Positions 59,099 to 63,179 are shown, counted from the first letter of the stretch. The stretch is DNA of 64,000 nt from Alphaproteobacteria bacterium (GCA_965220745.1 CBDCQT010000013.1:384001-448000), one strand, 5' to 3'. Notes: generated by a model not told the origin, from the letters alone. Numbers and translations are program-made.

Positions 59099-59610
59099 AT
59101 GGGCGGATATCTGATCACCGGCGGCCGGCTGCTCGACGCCACCGGCGCGTCACCGCAGGACAGTGTTTCGGTGCTGGTGGAGGGCAACCGCATCCGCAAG
59201 ATCGGCCCGGACCGGGAGGTCGCGGCCGCAGCCGAAACCCTGGGCGGTTACCGGACCATCGATGCCGCCGGCCACACCGTCATGCCGGGCATGATCGACG
59301 CCCACTGCCATATCTCCTACGGCGACATCCTCTCGTTCGAGGAGCTCGACCTCTACGCGGGCGTGGAGTACCGCACGCTGCGCGCCGCCAACAACGCGCG
59401 CAAGGTGCTGCGCGCGGGCGTTACCGCGTTCTCCGATCCTGGCTCCACATGGAACATCTCGGTGGCGGTCCGCGACGCCATCAACGCCGGCCTGATCGAG
59501 GGGCCGCGCATGGCCTCGGCCGGGCGCTACATCACCACCTTCAACGCCATCGGCTCGCCCTGGCCGTCGTGGATGGAGCACCCCAAGTCGTCGTTCGCCG
59601 TGCTCTGCAA
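59099..59610 (+). pseudogene. Amidohydrolase (prolidase-like metal-dependent hydrolase), 5' part, interrupted by the IS
   Basis: VMPGMIDAHCH, LRAGVT, GPRM. The frame runs into the IS at ...SSFAVLC. Confidence 0.9.
59603..59610 (+). repeat. 8-bp target site duplication, left copy (CTCTGCAA)
   Basis: Identical to 62283-62290 and abuts the left IR. Confidence 0.95.
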
Positions 59611-59634
59611 GGGGATTACAAAGGCTGGTTGACA
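59611..59634 (+). repeat. Left terminal inverted repeat
   Basis: GGGGATTACAAAGGCTGGTTGACA. Confidence 0.95.
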
Positions 59635-59657
59635 TTCCGGCCCGGACTCGCTAAGTT
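59629..59657 (+). promoter_or_regulatory. Candidate transposase promoter with its -35 inside IRL
   Basis: TTGACA (59629-59634)-N17-TAAGTT (59652-59657). Confidence 0.65.
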
Positions 59658-59693
59658 CTATCAACCTATCCGTATCGGAAATGGAGACAGGAC

Positions 59694-60680
59694 ATGGCCC
59701 GCAAGGCGCCCGGCAAATCTCACCGCGAGGGACTGACCATCGTCGAGTTAGTGGACATGTTCCCGACCGAAGAGGCCGCCACGACATGGTTTGAGGATAC
59801 GATCTGGCCCGACGGCCGGCATTGCCCCAAGTGTGGCTCCGAGCGCACAGGCAAGGCGAGCCATGCCAGGATGCCCTATTGGTGCACGGACTGCCGGAGC
59901 TACTTCAGCGTCCGTACGAACACCCCCATGGCCCGGTCGAACGTGCCCCTGCGCAAGTGGGCCATTGCGATTTACCTGTGCCTGACGAGCCTCAAGAGCG
60001 TCTCCAGCATGAAGCTCAAGCGTGACATCGGAGTGTCGCAGCCCACCGCGTGGTTCATGCTCCAGCGTATCCGGGAGGCTTGGGCGGAAGACGACGATGA
60101 CGAGCTCGATGGCCCGGTAGAGGTCGATGAGACCTACATGGGAGGCGAGCGCAAGAACATGTCGATCGCCCGGCGCAAGGCACTCCGCGAGGCGAACACG
60201 GGGCGTGGTTCTGTCGGCAAGACGGCCGTTGTGGGCATCAAGGACCGCGAGAGCGGGGAAGTCCGTGTCGAGGTCGTATCGAGTGTCGACGGCAAGACCT
60301 TGCAGGGTTTCGTCCGCGAGAACACAGAGGCCGGCGCCAAGGTCTATACGGACGAAGCATCGGCTTACAAGGGACTGGCGCGGGACTTTGACCATGAGGG
60401 CGTGCGCCACAGCGTCAGTCAGTACGTCCGGGGGCAAGCCCACATCAACGGCATGGAATCGTTCTGGTCAATGCTCAAGAGGGCGCATGACGGCACGTTT
60501 CACAAGATCAGTCCCAAGCACCTGCAACGCTACGTTTCGGAGTTTGCAGGCAAGCACAATATCCGGGACTCAGGAACGCTTGCGCAGATGCGGGACACTG
60601 TCGCCCGTATGGTTGGCAGGAACCTTTTCTACCGGGACTTGACCGCCGACAACGGACTGTCGAACGCGGGCCGGTCGTAA
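59694..60680 (+). CDS. IS1595-family transposase
   Basis: Zn ribbon CPKC...CTDC, HTH (SSMKLKRDIGVSQPTAW), VEVDETY, YTDE..AY, HINGMESFW, KHLQRYVSEF; GGAG RBS. Confidence 0.96.
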   Translation: MARKAPGKSHREGLTIVELVDMFPTEEAATTWFEDTIWPDGRHCPKCGSERTGKASHARMPYWCTDCRSYFSVRTNTPMARSNVPLRKWAIAIYLCLTSLKSVSSMKLKRDIGVSQPTAWFMLQRIREAWAEDDDDELDGPVEVDETYMGGERKNMSIARRKALREANTGRGSVGKTAVVGIKDRESGEVRVEVVSSVDGKTLQGFVRENTEAGAKVYTDEASAYKGLARDFDHEGVRHSVSQYVRGQAHINGMESFWSMLKRAHDGTFHKISPKHLQRYVSEFAGKHNIRDSGTLAQMRDTVARMVGRNLFYRDLTADNGLSNAGRS

Positions 60681-60776
60681 AGGTTCAACCCGGCGAAAAA
60701 GGGCTTTGGCCAGCTTTTCCGGGGTTGCTCCGACAAGGTGAACTTTCGGGTCTAGCATCGGAACGCCACGGGTCAT
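60570..60776 (-). CDS. Small hypothetical protein (68 aa) overlapping the transposase 3' end in antisense
   Basis: AAGGAG RBS 8 nt before ATG 60776; MTRGVPMLDPKVHLVGATPEKLAKALFRR... Confidence 0.55.
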   Translation of the reverse strand: MTRGVPMLDPKVHLVGATPEKLAKALFRRVEPLRPARVRQSVVGGQVPVEKVPANHTGDSVPHLRKRS

Positions 60777-60792
60777 CGATTCGACTCCTTGC

Positions 60793-60820
60793 TTGACGAA
60801 AGGAAGGAACACGGTAATTT
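60793..60820 (+). promoter_or_regulatory. Candidate promoter for the leader plus micropeptide transcript
   Basis: TTGACG-N16-TAATTT. Confidence 0.45.
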
Positions 60821-60854
60821 CGCCCAAGTGGCCGCGACGAATCGCGGTGACCCG

Positions 60855-60888
60855 AACGAAAGAGCCCCCCGCTGGAGGCGGGAGGCTC
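60855..60888 (-). terminator. Rho-independent terminator
   Basis: 11-bp stem (60862-60872 / 60878-60888), 5-nt loop, U-rich tail on the minus strand. Confidence 0.7.
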
Positions 60889-60942
60889 GATCAAAAGGGT
60901 CTGGTGTTGACCTGGAGAGGCGCACCAAACGGGCGTCAGAAC
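60855..60942 (-). ncRNA. Candidate antisense small RNA of about 85-90 nt
   Basis: Promoter TTGACA (60976-60971)-N16-TAGGAT (60954-60949); hairpin UUUGGUG/CACCAGA with a CUCC loop; terminator GAGCCUCCCGC-CUCCA-GCGGGGGGCUC-UUUCGUU. The stem irregularities are G-U wobbles only on the minus strand. Confidence 0.6.
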
Positions 60943-61006
60943 GCGGGTATCCTACCGACTCCCGCGAGCCTGTCAAGTGCGCTCTCCGAACGAAAGGAGA
61001 GCCAAC

Positions 61007-61081
61007 ATGGCTATCCCCTATCCTGTTCCAAAACAACCGAAACCTCCACATGTCCCGTGGCCGCCAGAGCCATGGTGTTAG
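61007..61081 (+). CDS. Candidate 24-aa proline-rich micropeptide MAIPYPVPKQPKPPHVPWPPEPWC
   Basis: AAAGGAGAG RBS shortly before ATG 61007, sequestered in a GCTCTCC/GGAGAGC hairpin; followed by a strong hairpin at 61091-61121. Too short for the ORF track. Confidence 0.55.
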   Translation: MAIPYPVPKQPKPPHVPWPPEPWC

Positions 61082-61089
61082 TCGATCTT

Positions 61090-61130
61090 GCCCCCGGTGG
61101 GTCTGCATGACTCGCCGGGGGGGGGGGGGC
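61090..61130. terminator. GC-rich hairpin with a G13 run between convergent cargo ORFs
   Basis: CCCCCGGTGGGTC-TGCAT-GACTCGCCGGGGG; G run at 61117-61129. Confidence 0.55.
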
Positions 61131-61360
61131 TACCAAGCTTTGGTGCTTATGGTGGGAGACGTAGAGCGCTCTTCAGGCCAAGAGGCGGTCACAGTCTCTT
61201 GGTCTGTATCCACGTTCTCACGGACGAGCTCGCTTCCGTCCGGGAAACGATACGTAAGGGTCTTTGTGACATACTCTGCCTTGCGGGCAACGCCAAGCCA
61301 GAACAGCACGCCGCGCGCGCCGTTCGCGACCCTCAGTTGCAATCGCTCGGCAATGCTCAC
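61130..61360 (-). CDS. Hypothetical cargo protein (76 aa)
   Basis: GTG start; TLTYRFPDGSELV resembles TTTYREQPDGSRIV in the 61898-62230 ORF. Confidence 0.5.
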   Translation of the reverse strand: MSIAERLQLRVANGARGVLFWLGVARKAEYVTKTLTYRFPDGSELVRENVDTDQETVTASWPEERSTSPTISTKAW

Positions 61361-61361
61361 G

Positions 61362-61443
61362 ATCCATCAACCTATCCGTATCGAATCCATCAACCTATCC
61401 GTATCGAAAAAGCTATCCGTATCGAAAAAGCTATCCGTATCGA
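61362..61443 (+). repeat. Four-copy tandem array with core CTATCCGTATCGA (2 x 23 bp plus 2 x 18 bp)
   Basis: ATCCATCAACCTATCCGTATCGA at 61362-61384 and 61385-61407; AAAAGCTATCCGTATCGA at 61408-61425 and 61426-61443. ATCAACCTATCCGTATCG also occurs at 59660-59677. Confidence 0.95.
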
Positions 61444-61579
61444 ATTGTTGCACAGATACTCCGACAAGGCTACCCTCCTTCCCTGCGTGCGGTTCGGCGA
61501 GGGCGGGCAGGAGCGCCCCACGCCTTGATTACCGGGCGCTCCAGGCGGGGTGCTGTCCCTGTACACGGCACCCCGCCGT

Positions 61580-61879
61580 TCATTCCTTGTCGGTGCCTGT
61601 TCCGGCCGCGTGCATTCTGCCGGCAATGCGGACCGGCGTGGGAGAGACGACCTCCGCCCCGCCGTCTATGTGGATGTGGAACACTCCGCCTGGGGCGCGA
61701 AAGTCCTGATAGGTTGCGCCAGGCGCCAAGTTGATTTGTACCTGCGGCGGCGACTCTCGTTGCTCCCGCAGCTCGGCAAGCTCTTTCTCCAATTGGGCAA
61801 TTCGCTTGGGCGCGGTAAGCATAGCGCTCACCCTTCCCCACCCAACGCGGAGCAACTCGACAGAAAACCACGATTCCAT
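61580..61879 (-). CDS. Hypothetical cargo protein (99 aa) with a short coiled coil and conserved C-terminal motif
   Basis: RIAQLEKELAELREQ; ends PVRIAGRMHAAGTGTDKE. Followed by hairpin GGCGGGGTGCTGT/ACGGCACCCCGCC at about 61544-61577. Confidence 0.65.
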   Translation of the reverse strand: MESWFSVELLRVGWGRVSAMLTAPKRIAQLEKELAELREQRESPPQVQINLAPGATYQDFRAPGGVFHIHIDGGAEVVSPTPVRIAGRMHAAGTGTDKE

Positions 61880-61897
61880 CCACGCATCATACTCTTC

Positions 61898-62230
61898 CTA
61901 CTCCTTGTCAGAAACCTTGTCAGTACCCGTGCCGGTCACATGCATTCTGCCGGCAAGACGCATAGGCTTGGCGAGCGTGGTCTGAGTGACGATCCGCGAG
62001 CCGTCCGGTTGCTCCCGGTAGGTGGTCGTGTCGTTCAAGCGGACCTCGGGGCCGAGGACCGACTTGGGTTTTCTCTTGCGGTCTATCCAGACACATACGC
62101 CCATGCCCACAAGGGCCAAGACGATGACGGCTATCCATATCCCTACGGACCAATGGGCCGTGAAGATATCCATCATTGCGCCGGCCCCCAGATCGAGGGC
62201 GAAAAAGCAGACTGCGAAATACCTAGCCAT
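61898..62230 (-). CDS. Hypothetical membrane cargo protein (110 aa), probably leaderless, with conserved C-terminal motif
   Basis: Hydrophobic N-terminal half then RKRKPK; ends PMRLAGRMHVTGTGTDKVSDKE. ATG lies 6 nt after the predicted -10 box. Confidence 0.65.
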   Translation of the reverse strand: MARYFAVCFFALDLGAGAMMDIFTAHWSVGIWIAVIVLALVGMGVCVWIDRKRKPKSVLGPEVRLNDTTTYREQPDGSRIVTQTTLAKPMRLAGRMHVTGTGTDKVSDKE

Positions 62231-62236
62231 TCTGCG

Positions 62237-62264
62237 ATCATATCGATTCCCCCGGTCGTGTCAA
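62237..62264 (-). promoter_or_regulatory. Candidate inward-facing promoter with its -35 inside IRR
   Basis: TTGACA (62264-62259)-N16-TATGAT (62242-62237). Confidence 0.65.
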
Positions 62265-62282
62265 CTACTCTTTGTAATCCCC
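62259..62282 (-). repeat. Right terminal inverted repeat
   Basis: TGTCAACTACTCTTTGTAATCCCC. Confidence 0.95.
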
Positions 62283-63179
62283 CTCTGCAACACGCGCGAG
62301 GAGATGGTCACGGAGGCGCGCCGCGAGATCAAGGACGGCGTCGACATCGTGAAGGTGGCCGGCGACGGCGACGTGCTCACCGGCGAGGCGGAGCTTGCCG
62401 GCAGCATCGGGCTCGACGACCTGCGCGCCATCGCCGAAGTCACCCACCGTCTCGGTAAGGTCTGCACCATCCACGCGCGCTCGGGCCGCGCGGCGGCCGA
62501 TGCCATCCGCGCCGGCTTCGACTGGATCATCCACGGCTCCTACATGTCCGACAACGATCTTGACGTGCTCTTCCGCAACCCGACGCCGCTGATCCCGACC
62601 TTCTCGCTGCTGGCGAACACCCTCGAATGGGGCCCGGACCTCGGCTGCTCGGGCTTCATCCTCGACGCCTACAAGGATGAGGTCGAGCGCCTTGCCAGCG
62701 TCGTCTCGCGAGCCCATGCCGAGGGAATCACTATCATCGCCGGCACCGACAGCGGCCAGGGCTCGGTGCCCTACGGCGAATGGCACGCGCGCGAGATGGA
62801 GCACCTGATGACCTATGGCGGCCTGAGCGCGGTGGAGGCGATCCGCGCGGGTACCGCTAACGCGGCGCTGACGCTCGGCATGGAGGACGAGATCGGTACC
62901 TTGGAGGAAGGCAAGCTCGCCGACATTCTGGTGGTGGATGGCGACCCGCTCGCCGATATCGCCGTGCTGCAGGACCGGGAGCGCCTCGCGGTCGTGATGA
63001 AGGACGGCGCAGTGGTCGACACAGAGGCGCCGATCCCCGAGCCCGCGCGCTACAACTGGGAAAAGCCCATGCTCTACTGGGAGGATCCGCGGATGCCGAC
63101 CCAGAGCTTCGTGCGCGAGCACGCGACCAGCAAGCCGCGCTGGATGCAGCAGGAACGCCGTCTCGACGCAGCGGAGTAG
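62283..63179 (+). pseudogene. Amidohydrolase, 3' part (begins with the right TSD copy)
   Basis: LCNTREEMV...VDIVKV, TIHA, WIIHGS, AGTDSG, GKLADILVVDGDPL. Removing the IS plus one TSD restores one 1401-nt frame (466 aa). Confidence 0.9.

What the first reader, a model, noticed from the sequence alone, without database searches (positions are those of the whole stretch)
59611..62282. IS1595 transposon whose 1.6-kb cargo is an organised set of microproteins and regulatory RNA signals
Seen: after the transposase come five short ORFs (24-110 aa), several strong hairpins and a tandem array; the element has four TTGAC-type candidate promoters. None of the cargo matches a family I recognise. Known: IS1595-family elements can carry passenger genes, typically resistance genes or regulators. 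Inference: a compact multi-layer module (maintenance, transposition control or defence) that automated annotation would largely miss.
Basis: partly seen in the sequence, partly recalled or inferred. Interest (0 to 1): 0.75.

Follow-up and report, generated by a model that had tools for sequence, protein, structure and literature searches.

The report
IS1595 transposon carrying unknown small genes
A 2.7-kb jumping gene has landed inside an enzyme gene and carries, besides its transposase, several small conserved genes of unknown function, a likely small RNA and a repeat array that may be a control site.

Summary
Window 59611-62282 is a complete, single-copy IS1595-family transporter IS: 24-nt inverted repeats, intact 328-aa transposase, 8-bp target duplication CTCTGCAA. 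It sits inside an amidohydrolase gene that is uninterrupted in 9 of 9 related genomes examined.

The 1.6 kb after the transposase is not junk. Four small ORFs belong to conserved but unnamed protein families: ORF68, ORF76, and the paralogs ORF99 and ORF110. There is also a promoter-plus-terminator unit that looks like an ~88-nt sRNA, and a 4-unit repeat array with a fifth unit on the transposase promoter.

It is not one fixed module. Each piece is shared with a different IS1595 relative. ORF68 is backbone of this IS clade (332 homologues). The sRNA unit also sits in another transporter IS and in a 458-bp transposase-less mini-element that has transposed. ORF110 recurs next to the right end of one relative. 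ORF76 occurs three times, each time with CTATCC(G/A)TATCGAAAA repeats.

My best mechanistic guess, which is inferred and not shown, is that ORF76 is a small DNA-binding protein that binds these repeats and represses the transposase promoter. No toxin-antitoxin or defence signature was found, and no RNA data were available. The element is a known kind; its contents are uncharacterised.

The parts
59603..59610 (.). Left copy of the 8-bp target-site duplication CTCTGCAA
   Evidence: Read. It is a single copy in 9 of 9 orthologous loci.
59611..59634 (+). IRL, GGGGATTACAAAGGCTGGTTGACA. It holds the -35 TTGACA (59629-59634) of the putative transposase promoter; the -10 TAAGTT is at 59652-59657.
   Evidence: I1. 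I read the promoter by eye; the scan did not report it.
59657..59681 (+). Lone repeat unit TCTATCAACCTATCCGTATCGGAAA. It starts at the last base of the -10, covers the predicted start site and ends just before the SD (GGAG, 59683-59686). This is an operator-like position.
   Evidence: D1.
59694..60680 (+). IS1595-family transposase, 328 aa, with a zinc ribbon and a DDE domain
   Evidence: It is 74-78% identical to the transposases of four related elements.
60570..60776 (-). ORF68, a 68-aa conserved small protein (MTRGVPMLDPKVHLVGATPEKLAKALFRR...). It is convergent with the transposase gene and overlaps its last ~110 nt. SD AAGGAG lies at 60790-60785.
   Evidence: 332 homologues, most listed ones 65-68 aa; the most conserved part lies outside the overlap. 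8 of 12 places in 6 genomes overlap an IS1595 transposase gene.
60832..60847 (-). Perfect palindrome CCGCGA-TTCG-TCGCGG, conserved downstream of the sRNA terminator
   Evidence: On its own it folds only marginally better than shuffles (z -1.6).
60855..60976 (-). Candidate sRNA unit: promoter TTGACA-16-TAGGAT (60976->60949), transcript of about 88 nt (~60942->60855), terminator GAGCCTCCCGCCTCCAGCGGGGGGCTC + TTTCGTT (60888->60862) with CCUCC motifs
   Evidence: for promoter and terminator. Fold z -5.1. Conserved in G011 (2 places) and G039 (3 places), with promoter columns invariant. 7 of 27 pairs show two-sided changes in a 3-sequence alignment. The Rfam ar14 match is only 22.6 bits against a gathering score of 58.8.
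61007..61081 (+). 24-aa proline-rich ORF (MAIPYPVPKQPKPPHVPWPPEPWC) with SD GAAAGGAGAG (60992-61001), divergent from the sRNA promoter. Not verified as a gene.
   Evidence: No homologue was found. In G011 and G039 other, unrelated small ORFs hold the same position.
61087..61130 (.). Strong hairpin followed by a run of 13 G (61117-61129), lying between the convergent 24-aa ORF and ORF76. It is stronger on the + strand RNA.
   Evidence: -34.6 against -20.1 kcal/mol. A similar hairpin lies in the C5 element. Contigs of three runs of one sample agree on the G run.
61130..61360 (-). ORF76, a 76-aa protein (GTG start) of a very rare family; candidate DNA-binding protein for the repeats
   Evidence: The 78-aa paralog in the C5 element is 51% identical. 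Five further small relatives were found among 1.84 billion representatives. AF2 model: pLDDT 84, helix-helix-strand-strand-strand. No fold match.
61362..61446 (+). Array of 4 direct repeats (spacing 23, 18, 18) with core CTATCCGTATCGAA, abutting the ORF76 start
   Evidence: The same core occurs 10 times at a 17-bp period next to IRR of the C5 element. A near-identical core occurs 5 times beside an ORF76 homologue in a metagenomic locus.
61505..61582 (-). Double hairpin directly after ORF99, with no U-tract. 70 nt of it are 87% identical to a stretch after a small ORF in the C3 element.
61580..61879 (-). ORF99 (possibly 80 aa from ATG 61822, which has the better SD). It is soluble with a coiled-coil-like N-terminus, and its C-terminus is paralogous to ORF110.
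   Evidence: 55% over 29 aa; D2 (57 nt, 77%); (P0009 has the same N-terminal type).
61898..62230 (-). ORF110, a small membrane protein: two predicted helices plus the conserved segment GPE(I/V)RLNDTTTYREQPDGSRIVTQTTLAKP
   Evidence: 10 proteins at E<=0.01, itself included. Homologue ORF133 lies at the same place next to IRR in the G015 element. AF2 model pLDDT 64.6.
62237..62282 (-). IRR (62282->62259) with an inward promoter TTGACA-16-TATGAT (62264->62237). The ORF110 ATG follows 6 nt after the -10, so the message is nearly leaderless.
62283..62290 (.). Right copy of the target-site duplication CTCTGCAA

Best explanation
This is a recently inserted, single-copy transporter IS (tIS) of the IS1595 family. 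Its non-transposase DNA is a mosaic of small units drawn from a pool that circulates among IS1595 relatives of this genus.

Shown:
- The element is complete: IRs, an intact transposase and an 8-bp duplication. It interrupts a gene that is intact in relatives.
- ORF68 is a conserved accessory gene of this IS clade, convergent with the transposase gene.
- A promoter-plus-terminator unit that looks like an ~88-nt sRNA gene follows ORF68. The same unit sits in another tIS and in an active 458-bp mini-element.
- ORF110 (membrane protein) and its partial paralog ORF99 are read inward from a promoter embedded in IRR. This layout (IRR-embedded -35, near-leaderless start) recurs in the G015 element.
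- The rare ORF76 family occurs in three contexts, each time with CTATCC(G/A)TATCGAAAA direct repeats.

Inferred:
- ORF76 is a small sequence-specific DNA-binding protein.
- The four sites upstream of its own start, and the single site lying over the start region of the transposase promoter, let it regulate itself and repress the transposase. This would keep the element at low copy number.
- The sRNA and the convergent ORF68 transcript add antisense control on the 3' side of the transposase message.

The role of ORF110/ORF99 is unknown. I guess a membrane-associated function that is selfish or of use to the host, not needed for transposition.
For: Element and insertion:
- IRs, TSD, transposase domains.
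- Only one full-length copy in the 4.8-Mb genome.
- Removing the element plus one TSD copy restores a 466-aa ORF with no stop. Its halves match Amidohydro_1 profile positions 1-89 and 99-345.
- In 9 of 9 loci fetched from congeneric genomes (of 17 with a match) the two flanks overlap by exactly the 8 bp.

Mosaic:
- The 1,602-bp cargo matches only short pieces in 5 of 61 related genomes, the window's own included.
- An ORF-by-ORF BLASTP over nine elements shares ORF68 with four, ORF110 with one and ORF76 with one.

ORF68:
- 332 proteins at E<=0.01 among 337 candidates.
- The invariant residues cluster in the N-terminal 35 residues, which lie almost wholly outside the overlap with the transposase gene.
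- 8 of 12 places in 6 of 401 class genomes overlap the end of an IS1595 transposase gene.

sRNA unit:
- Promoter and terminator found by the scan; fold z -5.1.
- Invariant promoter block and variable but still paired terminator stem across WIN, G011 and G039.
- In G039 two identical 458-bp copies carry IS1595-type IRs and different 8-bp duplications.

ORF76 and repeats:
- Paralog in the C5 element with a 10-unit array beside its IRR.
- Metagenomic homologue with 5 units of AACCTATCCATATC(G/A) about 650 nt downstream, and a lone unit at the start of the next operon.
- The 12-mer occurs 5 times in the window against 0.17 expected.
- The lone unit starts at the last base of the -10 and runs to just before the SD of the transposase gene.
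- The repeat core is identical between the window and C5 while the two proteins are only 51% identical.

IRR promoter: 11 of 12 consensus matches. G015 has a -35 in its IRR and a similarly placed start for ORF133 (read by eye).
Against: - No RNA or protein evidence: no listed run is on record as RNA, and only contigs could be laid.
- ORF76 has no detectable similarity to any DNA-binding family or fold. By my own count of residues it is not basic (net charge about 0).
- The C5 element has no repeat unit at its transposase promoter, so transposase repression cannot be the general role of the pair.
- The array is inverted relative to the ORF76-type gene in C5 compared with the window.
- In the metagenomic locus the array lies in a convergent intergenic region, not at the gene's own promoter.
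- No convincing promoter for ORF76 itself was found.
- The sRNA comparison rests on only three distinct sequences.
- The 24-aa ORF has no homologue.
- ORF99's start is uncertain.
Confidence: 0.6

Rival explanations
1. One reading: the cargo is one co-adapted multi-layer module (toxin-antitoxin-like maintenance, or phage defence) that travels as a fixed unit. For example, the small membrane protein ORF110 would be a toxin held in check by ORF99, by the sRNA or by ORF76.
For: - ORF110 is a small two-helix membrane protein expressed from a strong promoter, with an adjacent soluble paralog.
- A strongly folding small RNA unit is present.
- The related C5 element sits beside an OLD-like ATPase/TOPRIM gene.
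Against: - The cargo is not fixed. No other genome or element holds the set, and the pieces are shared separately.
- There is no hit at curated level in Pfam, NCBIfam, PHROGs or PADLOC. The best PADLOC row is BrxB at E 0.035, 11.8 bits.
- The sRNA is not antisense to ORF110 or ORF99; it lies 900 nt away.
- In G015 the ORF110 homologue travels with a methyltransferase-like gene instead.
Confidence: 0.12
2. The repeats act as RNA. A minus-strand transcript running from the IRR promoter through the array (the leader of ORF76) carries copies complementary to the transposase message's 5' end. It represses the message in trans, as an antisense RNA.
For: - Three units, including the one at the transposase gene, share a perfect 18-mer, ATCAACCTATCCGTATCG (D1).
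- The double hairpin after ORF99 has no U-tract, so read-through into the array is plausible.
- In the metagenomic locus the lone unit also overlaps the start of a gene on the opposite strand.
Against: - The predicted transcription start lies inside the unit, so only about 13-14 nt would be in the transposase RNA (read).
- The C5 element has 10 units but no complementary site at its transposase gene.
- Co-occurrence with one protein family in three contexts fits a protein-DNA pair better.
Confidence: 0.12
3. ORF76 plus the array is a relic of a phage or plasmid iteron or centromere cassette (origin or partition site with its binding protein). The IS picked it up by chance, and it has no role in the IS. 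The lone unit near IRL is a remnant of recombination.
For: - The metagenomic homologue lies in a phage-like region (phrog_757 methyltransferase 2.5e-46, phrog_6247 4.7e-56).
- Its array lies in an AT-rich convergent intergenic region next to an 8-bp GC-rich repeat tract, which looks like an origin.
- The unit periods of 17-35 bp are iteron-like.
Against: - Two different IS1595 elements, with transposases about 52% identical, each carry the pair.
- In both elements, a unit reads the same way inward from the nearest terminal IR.
- The lone unit sits exactly on the transposase promoter.
- No Rep, ParA or other partner gene is present.
Confidence: 0.13
4. Most of the cargo is decaying non-functional DNA. 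The ORFs and hairpins are by-products of GC-rich sequence.
For: - The 24-aa ORF has no homologue.
- Many spurious ORFs exist in all six frames of this 60-67% GC DNA.
- None of 10 cargo ORFs of related elements has a Pfam hit.
Against: - ORF68, ORF76 and ORF110 each have homologues with conserved motifs at DNA divergence too great for BLASTN.
- The promoter block of the sRNA unit is invariant across three genomes.
- The repeats are 30-fold above chance.
- The element is intact and its target site is clean.
Confidence: 0.03

Closest known systems
Transporter IS (tIS) of the IS1595 family, e.g. ISNha5 (Siguier, Gagnevin and Chandler 2009). I saw this only as a passage and reference in PMC11891212; the 2009 paper itself was not read.
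   Same: An IS1595-type transposase and IRs enclose extra genes not obviously needed for transposition. The duplication is 8 bp; that 8 bp is typical of the family is recalled, not from a call.
   Different: The passage names transcription regulators as ISNha5 passengers. Here the passengers are four unnamed small proteins, a candidate sRNA and a repeat array. I could not test which IS1595 subgroup this belongs to, because no ISfinder copy was available.
MITEs (transposase-less derivatives of an IS)
   Same: The 458-bp G039 element has IS1595-type IRs, 8-bp duplications and two identical copies. It derives from an element laid out like the window's: it keeps a remnant of the ORF68 start, the sRNA unit and a divergent small ORF.
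   Different: The window's element is autonomous. The mini-element matters only as evidence that the sRNA unit belongs to this IS lineage.
Small architectural or regulatory DNA-binding proteins that coat tandem direct repeats: phage P2 Cox and lambda Xis (recalled, not from a call)
   Same: The size is 65-90 aa. They are associated with arrays of direct repeats inside a mobile element, and a site lies at a promoter. The predicted order of two helices then a beta hairpin is at least compatible with a winged helix.
   Different: There is no sequence or fold match. The element uses a DDE transposase, not an integrase. Binding is not shown.
Antisense RNA control of transposases: IS10 RNA-OUT and IS200 art200 (recalled)
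   Same: A small structured RNA with its own promoter is encoded on the strand opposite to the transposase gene within the IS. The convergent ORF68 message overlaps the transposase 3' end.
   Different: The candidate sRNA lies downstream of the transposase gene, not over its 5' end. No pairing with the transposase start region was found.
Rfam RF02344, alphaproteobacterial ar14 sRNA
   Same: The length is similar, the RNA has several stem-loops and it has C/U-rich CCUCC motifs. It is the only Rfam row at E<=1.
   Different: The score is 22.6 bits against a gathering score of 58.8. The homologous units in G011 and G039 give no ar14 row at E<=1. It is not a member.

Membership tests
IS1595 family insertion sequence | DDE transposase of the ISXO2/IS1595 type | tested here: met
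   PF12762 2.4e-42 (145 bits, cut-off 27). NF033547 3.5e-58 (197 bits, cut-off 75), profile 1-215 of 215.
IS1595 family insertion sequence | N-terminal zinc-ribbon domain | tested here: met
   PF12760 3.5e-08, 33.7 bits against cut-off 25.4.
IS1595 family insertion sequence | Terminal inverted repeats and a short fixed-length target duplication (8 bp; the typical length is recalled) | tested here: met
   24-nt IRs. The 8-bp CTCTGCAA is duplicated here and single in 9 of 9 orthologous loci. Six related elements and the C5 element have IRs starting GGGG(A/C)TTAT.
Transporter IS (tIS) | Passenger genes between the IRs that are not transposition genes | tested here: met
   1.6 kb with ORF76, ORF99 and ORF110 lies between the transposase gene and IRR. 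Whether they are dispensable for transposition cannot be tested here.
Rfam ar14 (RF02344) | Covariance-model score at or above the gathering score | tested here: not met
   22.6 bits against 58.8, E 0.22. No row for the homologous loci.
Toxin-antitoxin system (type I or II) | A recognisable toxin or antitoxin family, or an antisense RNA overlapping a small hydrophobic toxin gene | tested here: not met
   No TA family appears in Pfam or NCBIfam at E<=1. The sRNA unit does not overlap ORF110 or ORF99. Toxicity itself was not tested.
Known anti-phage defence systems (PADLOC-DB 2.0) | A protein matching a defence model | tested here: not met
   ORF110, ORF99 and ORF68: no row at E<=0.1. ORF76: BrxB at E 0.035, 11.8 bits, taken as chance. 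The 24-aa ORF was queried one base out of frame there, so it was in effect not tested.
Ribbon-helix-helix centromere or operator binders (ParG, omega, CopG type; features recalled) | N-terminal beta strand followed by two helices | tested here: not met
   The AF2 model of ORF76 has the order helix 3-12, helix 18-27, then three strands, with pLDDT about 90 for residues 1-60. This is a prediction only.
Winged-helix excisionase or Cox-like proteins (features recalled) | Winged-helix fold, and cooperative binding to tandem direct repeats | tested here: inconclusive
   The secondary-structure order is compatible. Foldseek found nothing at E<=0.001, and VIA-align's best Z was 2.6. Binding cannot be tested here.

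The most novel reading that the evidence does not exclude
IS1595-lineage transposons carry their own trans-acting control kit. One part is a previously undescribed small DNA-binding protein family (ORF76, no known fold) that recognises CTATCC(G/A)TATCGAAAA repeats placed subterminally and on the transposase promoter, like the arm-type sites of integrases but as a separate protein. Another is an IS-borne sRNA that is kept even in transposase-less mini-elements. The third is the widespread 68-aa ORF68 encoded antisense to the transposase 3' end. Together they would set transposition rate and copy number, which would be a new layer of IS self-regulation.
Probability: 0.2. Interest if true: 0.7.

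Novelty: new variant of a known kind. Interest (0 to 1): 0.5.

Why it matters
Transporter ISs are known, but their passengers are usually described as resistance genes or regulators. Here a whole clade of IS1595 elements carries only unnamed small genes: none of 10 cargo ORFs of the relatives has a Pfam hit. The clade also carries a probable sRNA, which shows that ISs move micro-genes and RNA genes that annotation pipelines skip.

The ORF76-repeat pair gives a directly testable candidate for cargo-encoded control of a DDE transposase. ORF68, with 332 homologues, is an unstudied accessory gene of a widespread IS clade. The element also inactivated a conserved amidohydrolase gene in this strain.

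Tried and rejected
- Plasmid and phage collections gave no match: the whole element by blastn against plasmids, ORF68 and ORF76 by tblastn against plasmids, and ORF76 against phages.
- ORF76 gave no candidate in the word-indexed 5.8-billion collection.
- The ORF76 profile matched in 3 of 401 class genomes. The two matches outside the own genome are weak (E 0.003 and 0.007) and lie inside long ORFs, so I took them as chance.
- For ORF76 in genome contigs, 37 pattern stretches were found but none was confirmed.
- For ORF76 in viral contigs, none was confirmed, and the repeat pattern gave no match.
- The repeat pair pattern in genome contigs gave 9 loci. By eye, 7 are coding Asp/Ser/Thr-type repeats and 2 are unrelated intergenic repeats, none with an ORF76 or IS1595 gene nearby. 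I rejected all as chance.
- The representative search listed 10 proteins at E<=0.001. The 5 long ones (592-1987 aa, 3-8 stretches) match only the short repeated 'F-P-D-G-S'-like motif, and I left them out of alignment A6.
- PDB sequence searches with the three family profiles gave nothing below E 1.
- ESM Atlas gave only unnamed clusters, with best scores 0.93 and 0.83.
- The ORF110 model is of low confidence (pLDDT 64.6) and was not searched against fold libraries.
- hhalign of the ORF68 profile against three other small cargo ORFs with a 'GATPE..A.AL.R'-like motif gave probabilities of 71%, 16% and 8% over 13-23 columns. This is a lead, not homology.
- Sequencing runs: no RNA holder was listed. 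Contigs of X1-X3 (one sample) cover the element without differences, and X5 (a second study) holds five identical pieces of 151-229 nt.
- A contig joint 59539/62411 with 17 other letters, and a joint 60608/62259 (side 24), are probably relatives' sequences. I did not use them as evidence.
- ARAGORN finds no tRNA in the element or in the C5 and C3 loci.
- I did not build a covariance model for the sRNA, because there are only three distinct sequences.
- I did not run complex prediction, because no protein-protein claim is made.

Full report
**1. The element is real and its borders are as given**

Window 59611-62282 (2,672 bp) is bounded by 24-nt inverted repeats, GGGGATTACAAAGGCTGGTTGACA and GGGGATTACAAAGAGTAGTTGACA (88% complementary). 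It is flanked by the direct repeat CTCTGCAA.

The 328-aa ORF 59694-60680 is a full-length IS1595-family transposase: PF12762 2.4e-42, zinc ribbon PF12760 3.5e-08, NF033547 3.5e-58 over the whole profile.

The element interrupts an amidohydrolase gene.
- Taking out the element and one copy of the 8-mer gives a 466-aa frame without a stop.
- The two halves match Amidohydro_1 positions 1-89 and 99-345.
- The left flank is found in 18 of 21 genomes of the genus. In all 9 loci that I fetched, the left and right flanks overlap by exactly the 8 bp. These are empty sites with a single CTCTGCAA.

The genome (4.82 Mb, 13 contigs) holds one full copy only; other matches are diverged transposase genes and two short cargo pieces. 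The element's GC content is 60% against 67% for the window.

Contigs of three runs of one sample cover the element without differences. A run of a second study holds five identical pieces. No run is on record as RNA.

**2. What lies after the transposase gene**

Reading the minus strand inward from IRR:
- IRR holds TTGACA-16-TATGAT (11 of 12), with the ORF110 ATG 6 nt behind the -10.
- ORF110 runs 62230->61898.
- ORF99 runs 61879->61580. A better-placed SD precedes the ATG at 61822.
- A double hairpin without a U-tract lies at 61582->61505 (-46.1 kcal/mol, z -3.4).
- Four direct repeats lie at 61446->61362.
- ORF76 runs 61360->61130 and has a GTG start.
- A run of 13 C/G and a hairpin lie at 61130->61087.
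- A second strong promoter lies at 60976->60949, with a terminator at 60888->60862. I take this as the sRNA unit.
- A perfect palindrome lies at 60847->60832.
- ORF68 runs 60776->60570, has the SD AAGGAG, and overlaps the last ~110 nt of the transposase gene.

On the plus strand, a 24-aa proline-rich ORF (61007-61081) with the SD GAAAGGAGAG diverges from the sRNA promoter and ends at the hairpin. The hairpin folds better as plus-strand RNA (-34.6 against -20.1 kcal/mol).

In IRL, TTGACA-17-TAAGTT precedes the transposase gene. The fifth repeat unit (59657-59681) starts at the last base of the -10 and ends just before the SD.

**3. Which ORFs are genes**

*ORF68*
- 332 proteins at E<=0.01 among 337 candidates; most of the listed ones are 65-68 aa.
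- In a 23-sequence alignment the invariant residues (P6 P10 L14 G16 A17 T18 L22 L26 R28 P32 L33 P35) lie in the N-terminal half, which lies almost wholly outside the transposase overlap. The conservation is therefore not a shadow of the transposase frame.
- In a sample of 401 genomes of the class, 6 have it. Of 12 places, 8 overlap the 3' end of an IS1595 transposase gene that is 66-79% identical to this one. The other 4 are N-terminal pieces without a transposase gene within 1.5 kb.
- ORF68 is therefore backbone of this IS clade, not cargo.

*ORF110*
- 10 proteins at E<=0.01, itself included. All share GPE(I/V)RLNDTTTYREQPDGSR(I/V)VTQTTLA behind one or two hydrophobic helices.
- The AF2 model is weak (pLDDT 64.6) and shows two long helices and a beta hairpin.

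*ORF99*
- It shares only the C-terminal segment with ORF110 (55% over 29 aa; 57 nt at 77%).
- It has a coiled-coil-like N-terminus, as in family member P0009.

*ORF76*
- It is absent from the word-indexed collection.
- It has a 78-aa paralog in contig C5 of the same genome (51% identity) and five small relatives of 65-102 aa among 1.84 billion representatives.
- Its AF2 model (pLDDT 84) has two helices followed by three strands. No fold match was found: Foldseek gave nothing at E<=0.001 and VIA-align's best Z was 2.6.

*The 24-aa ORF* has no homologue, so I leave it as a candidate.

No cargo ORF has a Pfam, NCBIfam, PHROG or PADLOC match at a meaningful level.

**4. The cargo is a mosaic shared piecewise with other IS1595 elements**

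I delimited seven further elements with GGGG(A/C)TTAT-type IRs:
- G015, 2,241 bp.
- G011 contig 2, 3,253 bp.
- G008, two elements.
- G011 contig 1, 4,490 bp.
- Own contig C12, 3,161 bp.
- Own contig C3, 3,964 bp, with a frameshifted transposase gene.
- Own contig C5, 2,525 bp, with TSD CGTTGTTC.

All carry 1-3 kb of extra DNA, and their long cargo ORFs read inward from IRR. None of the 10 cargo ORFs tested has a Pfam hit at E<=0.001.

Shared with the window (unless stated):
- ORF68 in the four closest elements, whose transposases are 74-78% identical.
- ORF110 only in G015, again next to IRR, followed there by a methyltransferase-like gene (PF13489 1.2e-10).
- ORF76 only in C5.
- A 70-nt double-hairpin piece only in C3 (87%).
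- The sRNA unit in G011 contig 1 and in G039.

The whole cargo as DNA matches only short pieces, in 5 of 61 related genomes, the window's own included.

**5. The sRNA unit**

- The scan finds both the promoter and a terminator with a TTTCGTT tail.
- The 120-nt stretch folds at -58.7 kcal/mol, z -5.1.
- Across the window, G011 and G039, the block GCGCACTTGAC-GG-TCGCGGGA-TCG-TA-GAT is nearly invariant. The first stem-loop is conserved. The terminator stem differs in sequence but stays paired (7 of 27 pairs with two-sided changes, from only three sequences).
- Rfam offers only ar14, at 22.6 bits against a gathering score of 58.8, and gives nothing for the relatives.
- In G039 the unit sits in a 458-bp element with IS1595-type IRs. 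Two copies are identical, with different 8-bp duplications (TTTTTTTA and TTTTTTAT), and there is a third partial copy.
- This mini-element also keeps a remnant resembling the ORF68 start and a divergent 54-aa ORF. It therefore descends from an element laid out like the window's.
- The unit occurs in 3 of 49 genomes of the order and once in the own genome.

**6. The repeats and ORF76**

- The core CTATCCGTATCG occurs 5 times in the window, against 0.17 expected.
- In the genome, all other exact copies are the nine in C5. Its array has 10 units at a 17-bp period, one of them with a mismatch, directly inside the IRR of the C5 element and upstream of a TTGACA-17-CATAAT promoter for ORF84-ORF78.
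- Read inward from the nearest IR, a unit has the same orientation in both elements.
- A metagenomic locus with an ORF76 relative (42% identity) has five units of GACATCGGCAACCTATCCATATC(G/A) at a 31-35-bp period about 650 nt downstream, and a lone unit at the start of the next operon. The context is phage-like.

So there are three contexts (two of them in one genome), one protein family and one DNA motif. From this I infer a protein-site pair. The position of the lone unit on the transposase promoter suggests repression.

Points against:
- No similarity to known DNA binders.
- No unit at the C5 transposase gene.
- The array is inverted relative to the gene in C5.
- No clear promoter for ORF76 itself.

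**7. Comparison with what is known**

Transporter ISs of the IS1595 family are described. A passage in PMC11891212 cites Siguier et al. 2009 and names ISNha5 with transcription-regulator passengers. I did not read the 2009 paper. Full-text searches for IS1595 with 'passenger genes', and for ISNwi1, ISNha5 and ISPna2, returned nothing on small-ORF or sRNA cargo. These searches cover open-access text only.

The element is thus a known kind with uncharacterised contents. The ORF76-repeat pair, the IS-borne sRNA and ORF68 are, as far as these searches go, undescribed.

**8. Verdict**

- The mechanism I favour is cargo-encoded control of the transposase by ORF76, at about one in three.
- The wider statement (a tIS with a mosaic of real small genes) I hold at about 0.85.
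- The combined confidence is 0.6.

Noticed in passing
L011:1952-4476 (G000 contig C5, 22951-25475): A second complete IS1595 transporter IS in the same genome (IRs GGGGCTTATATAG..., TSD CGTTGTTC). Its cargo holds a tRNA-like gene on the minus strand (L011:3390-3292; Rfam tRNA 60.9 bits, E 8.3e-11). That gene has a ~26-nt variable arm, anticodon loop CUUGGAA (anticodon UGG by my reading) and an encoded CCA, yet ARAGORN does not call it. The element also has a 21-aa proline-rich ORF with a strong SD near IRL. A class-II-shaped tRNA with a proline anticodon on an IS deserves its own look.
   Followed up: partly
L033:3399-3856 and L024:1344-1801 (G039): A 458-bp transposase-less mini-IS1595 (MITE) is present in two identical copies with different 8-bp duplications. 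It carries the sRNA-like unit and a 54-aa ORF. A partial third copy lies in L027.
   Followed up: yes
L012:2934-6897 (G000 contig C3): A third IS1595 transporter IS, with a frameshifted transposase gene. Its cargo comprises 138-aa, 126-aa (phrog_14750, 7.4e-34) and 62-aa ORFs and further ORFs. It shares a 70-nt double hairpin (87%) with the window's element.
   Followed up: partly
window 61117-61129: A run of 13 G directly after the ORF76 stop, forming part of the hairpin. Contigs of three runs of one sample agree on its length. Variation in length could not be judged from contigs.
   Followed up: partly
L011:4464-5864: Next to the C5 element lies a 466-aa OLD-like ATPase/TOPRIM gene (PF13304 7.2e-16, PF20469 1.5e-07). 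This is the kind of gene found in defence islands.
   Followed up: no
L029, L031, L032, L013 (related elements): All related transporter ISs have cargo operons that read inward from IRR. None of 10 cargo ORFs tested (129-576 aa) has a Pfam match at E<=0.001, so this is a pool of unknown genes moved by this IS clade.
   Followed up: partly
G000:C13:777450-777551 and G000:C6:95503-95577 (L058, L061): Stand-alone matches to the N-terminal part of ORF68 (residues ~4-37 and ~3-27) lie without an IS1595 transposase gene within 1.5 kb. They may be IS remnants or independent small genes with the GATPE..LAKAL motif.
   Followed up: no
L033:4862-4964: A group II intron domain (RF01999, 96 bits) and an IS3-like ORF flank the G039 mini-element, so this is a nest of mobile elements.
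   Followed up: no
L048:5475-5720: In the metagenomic locus with the ORF76 relative, a tract of about 30 copies of an 8-bp unit (CGGCAGCC, with variants) lies between the gene and the repeat array. Its function is unknown.
   Followed up: no
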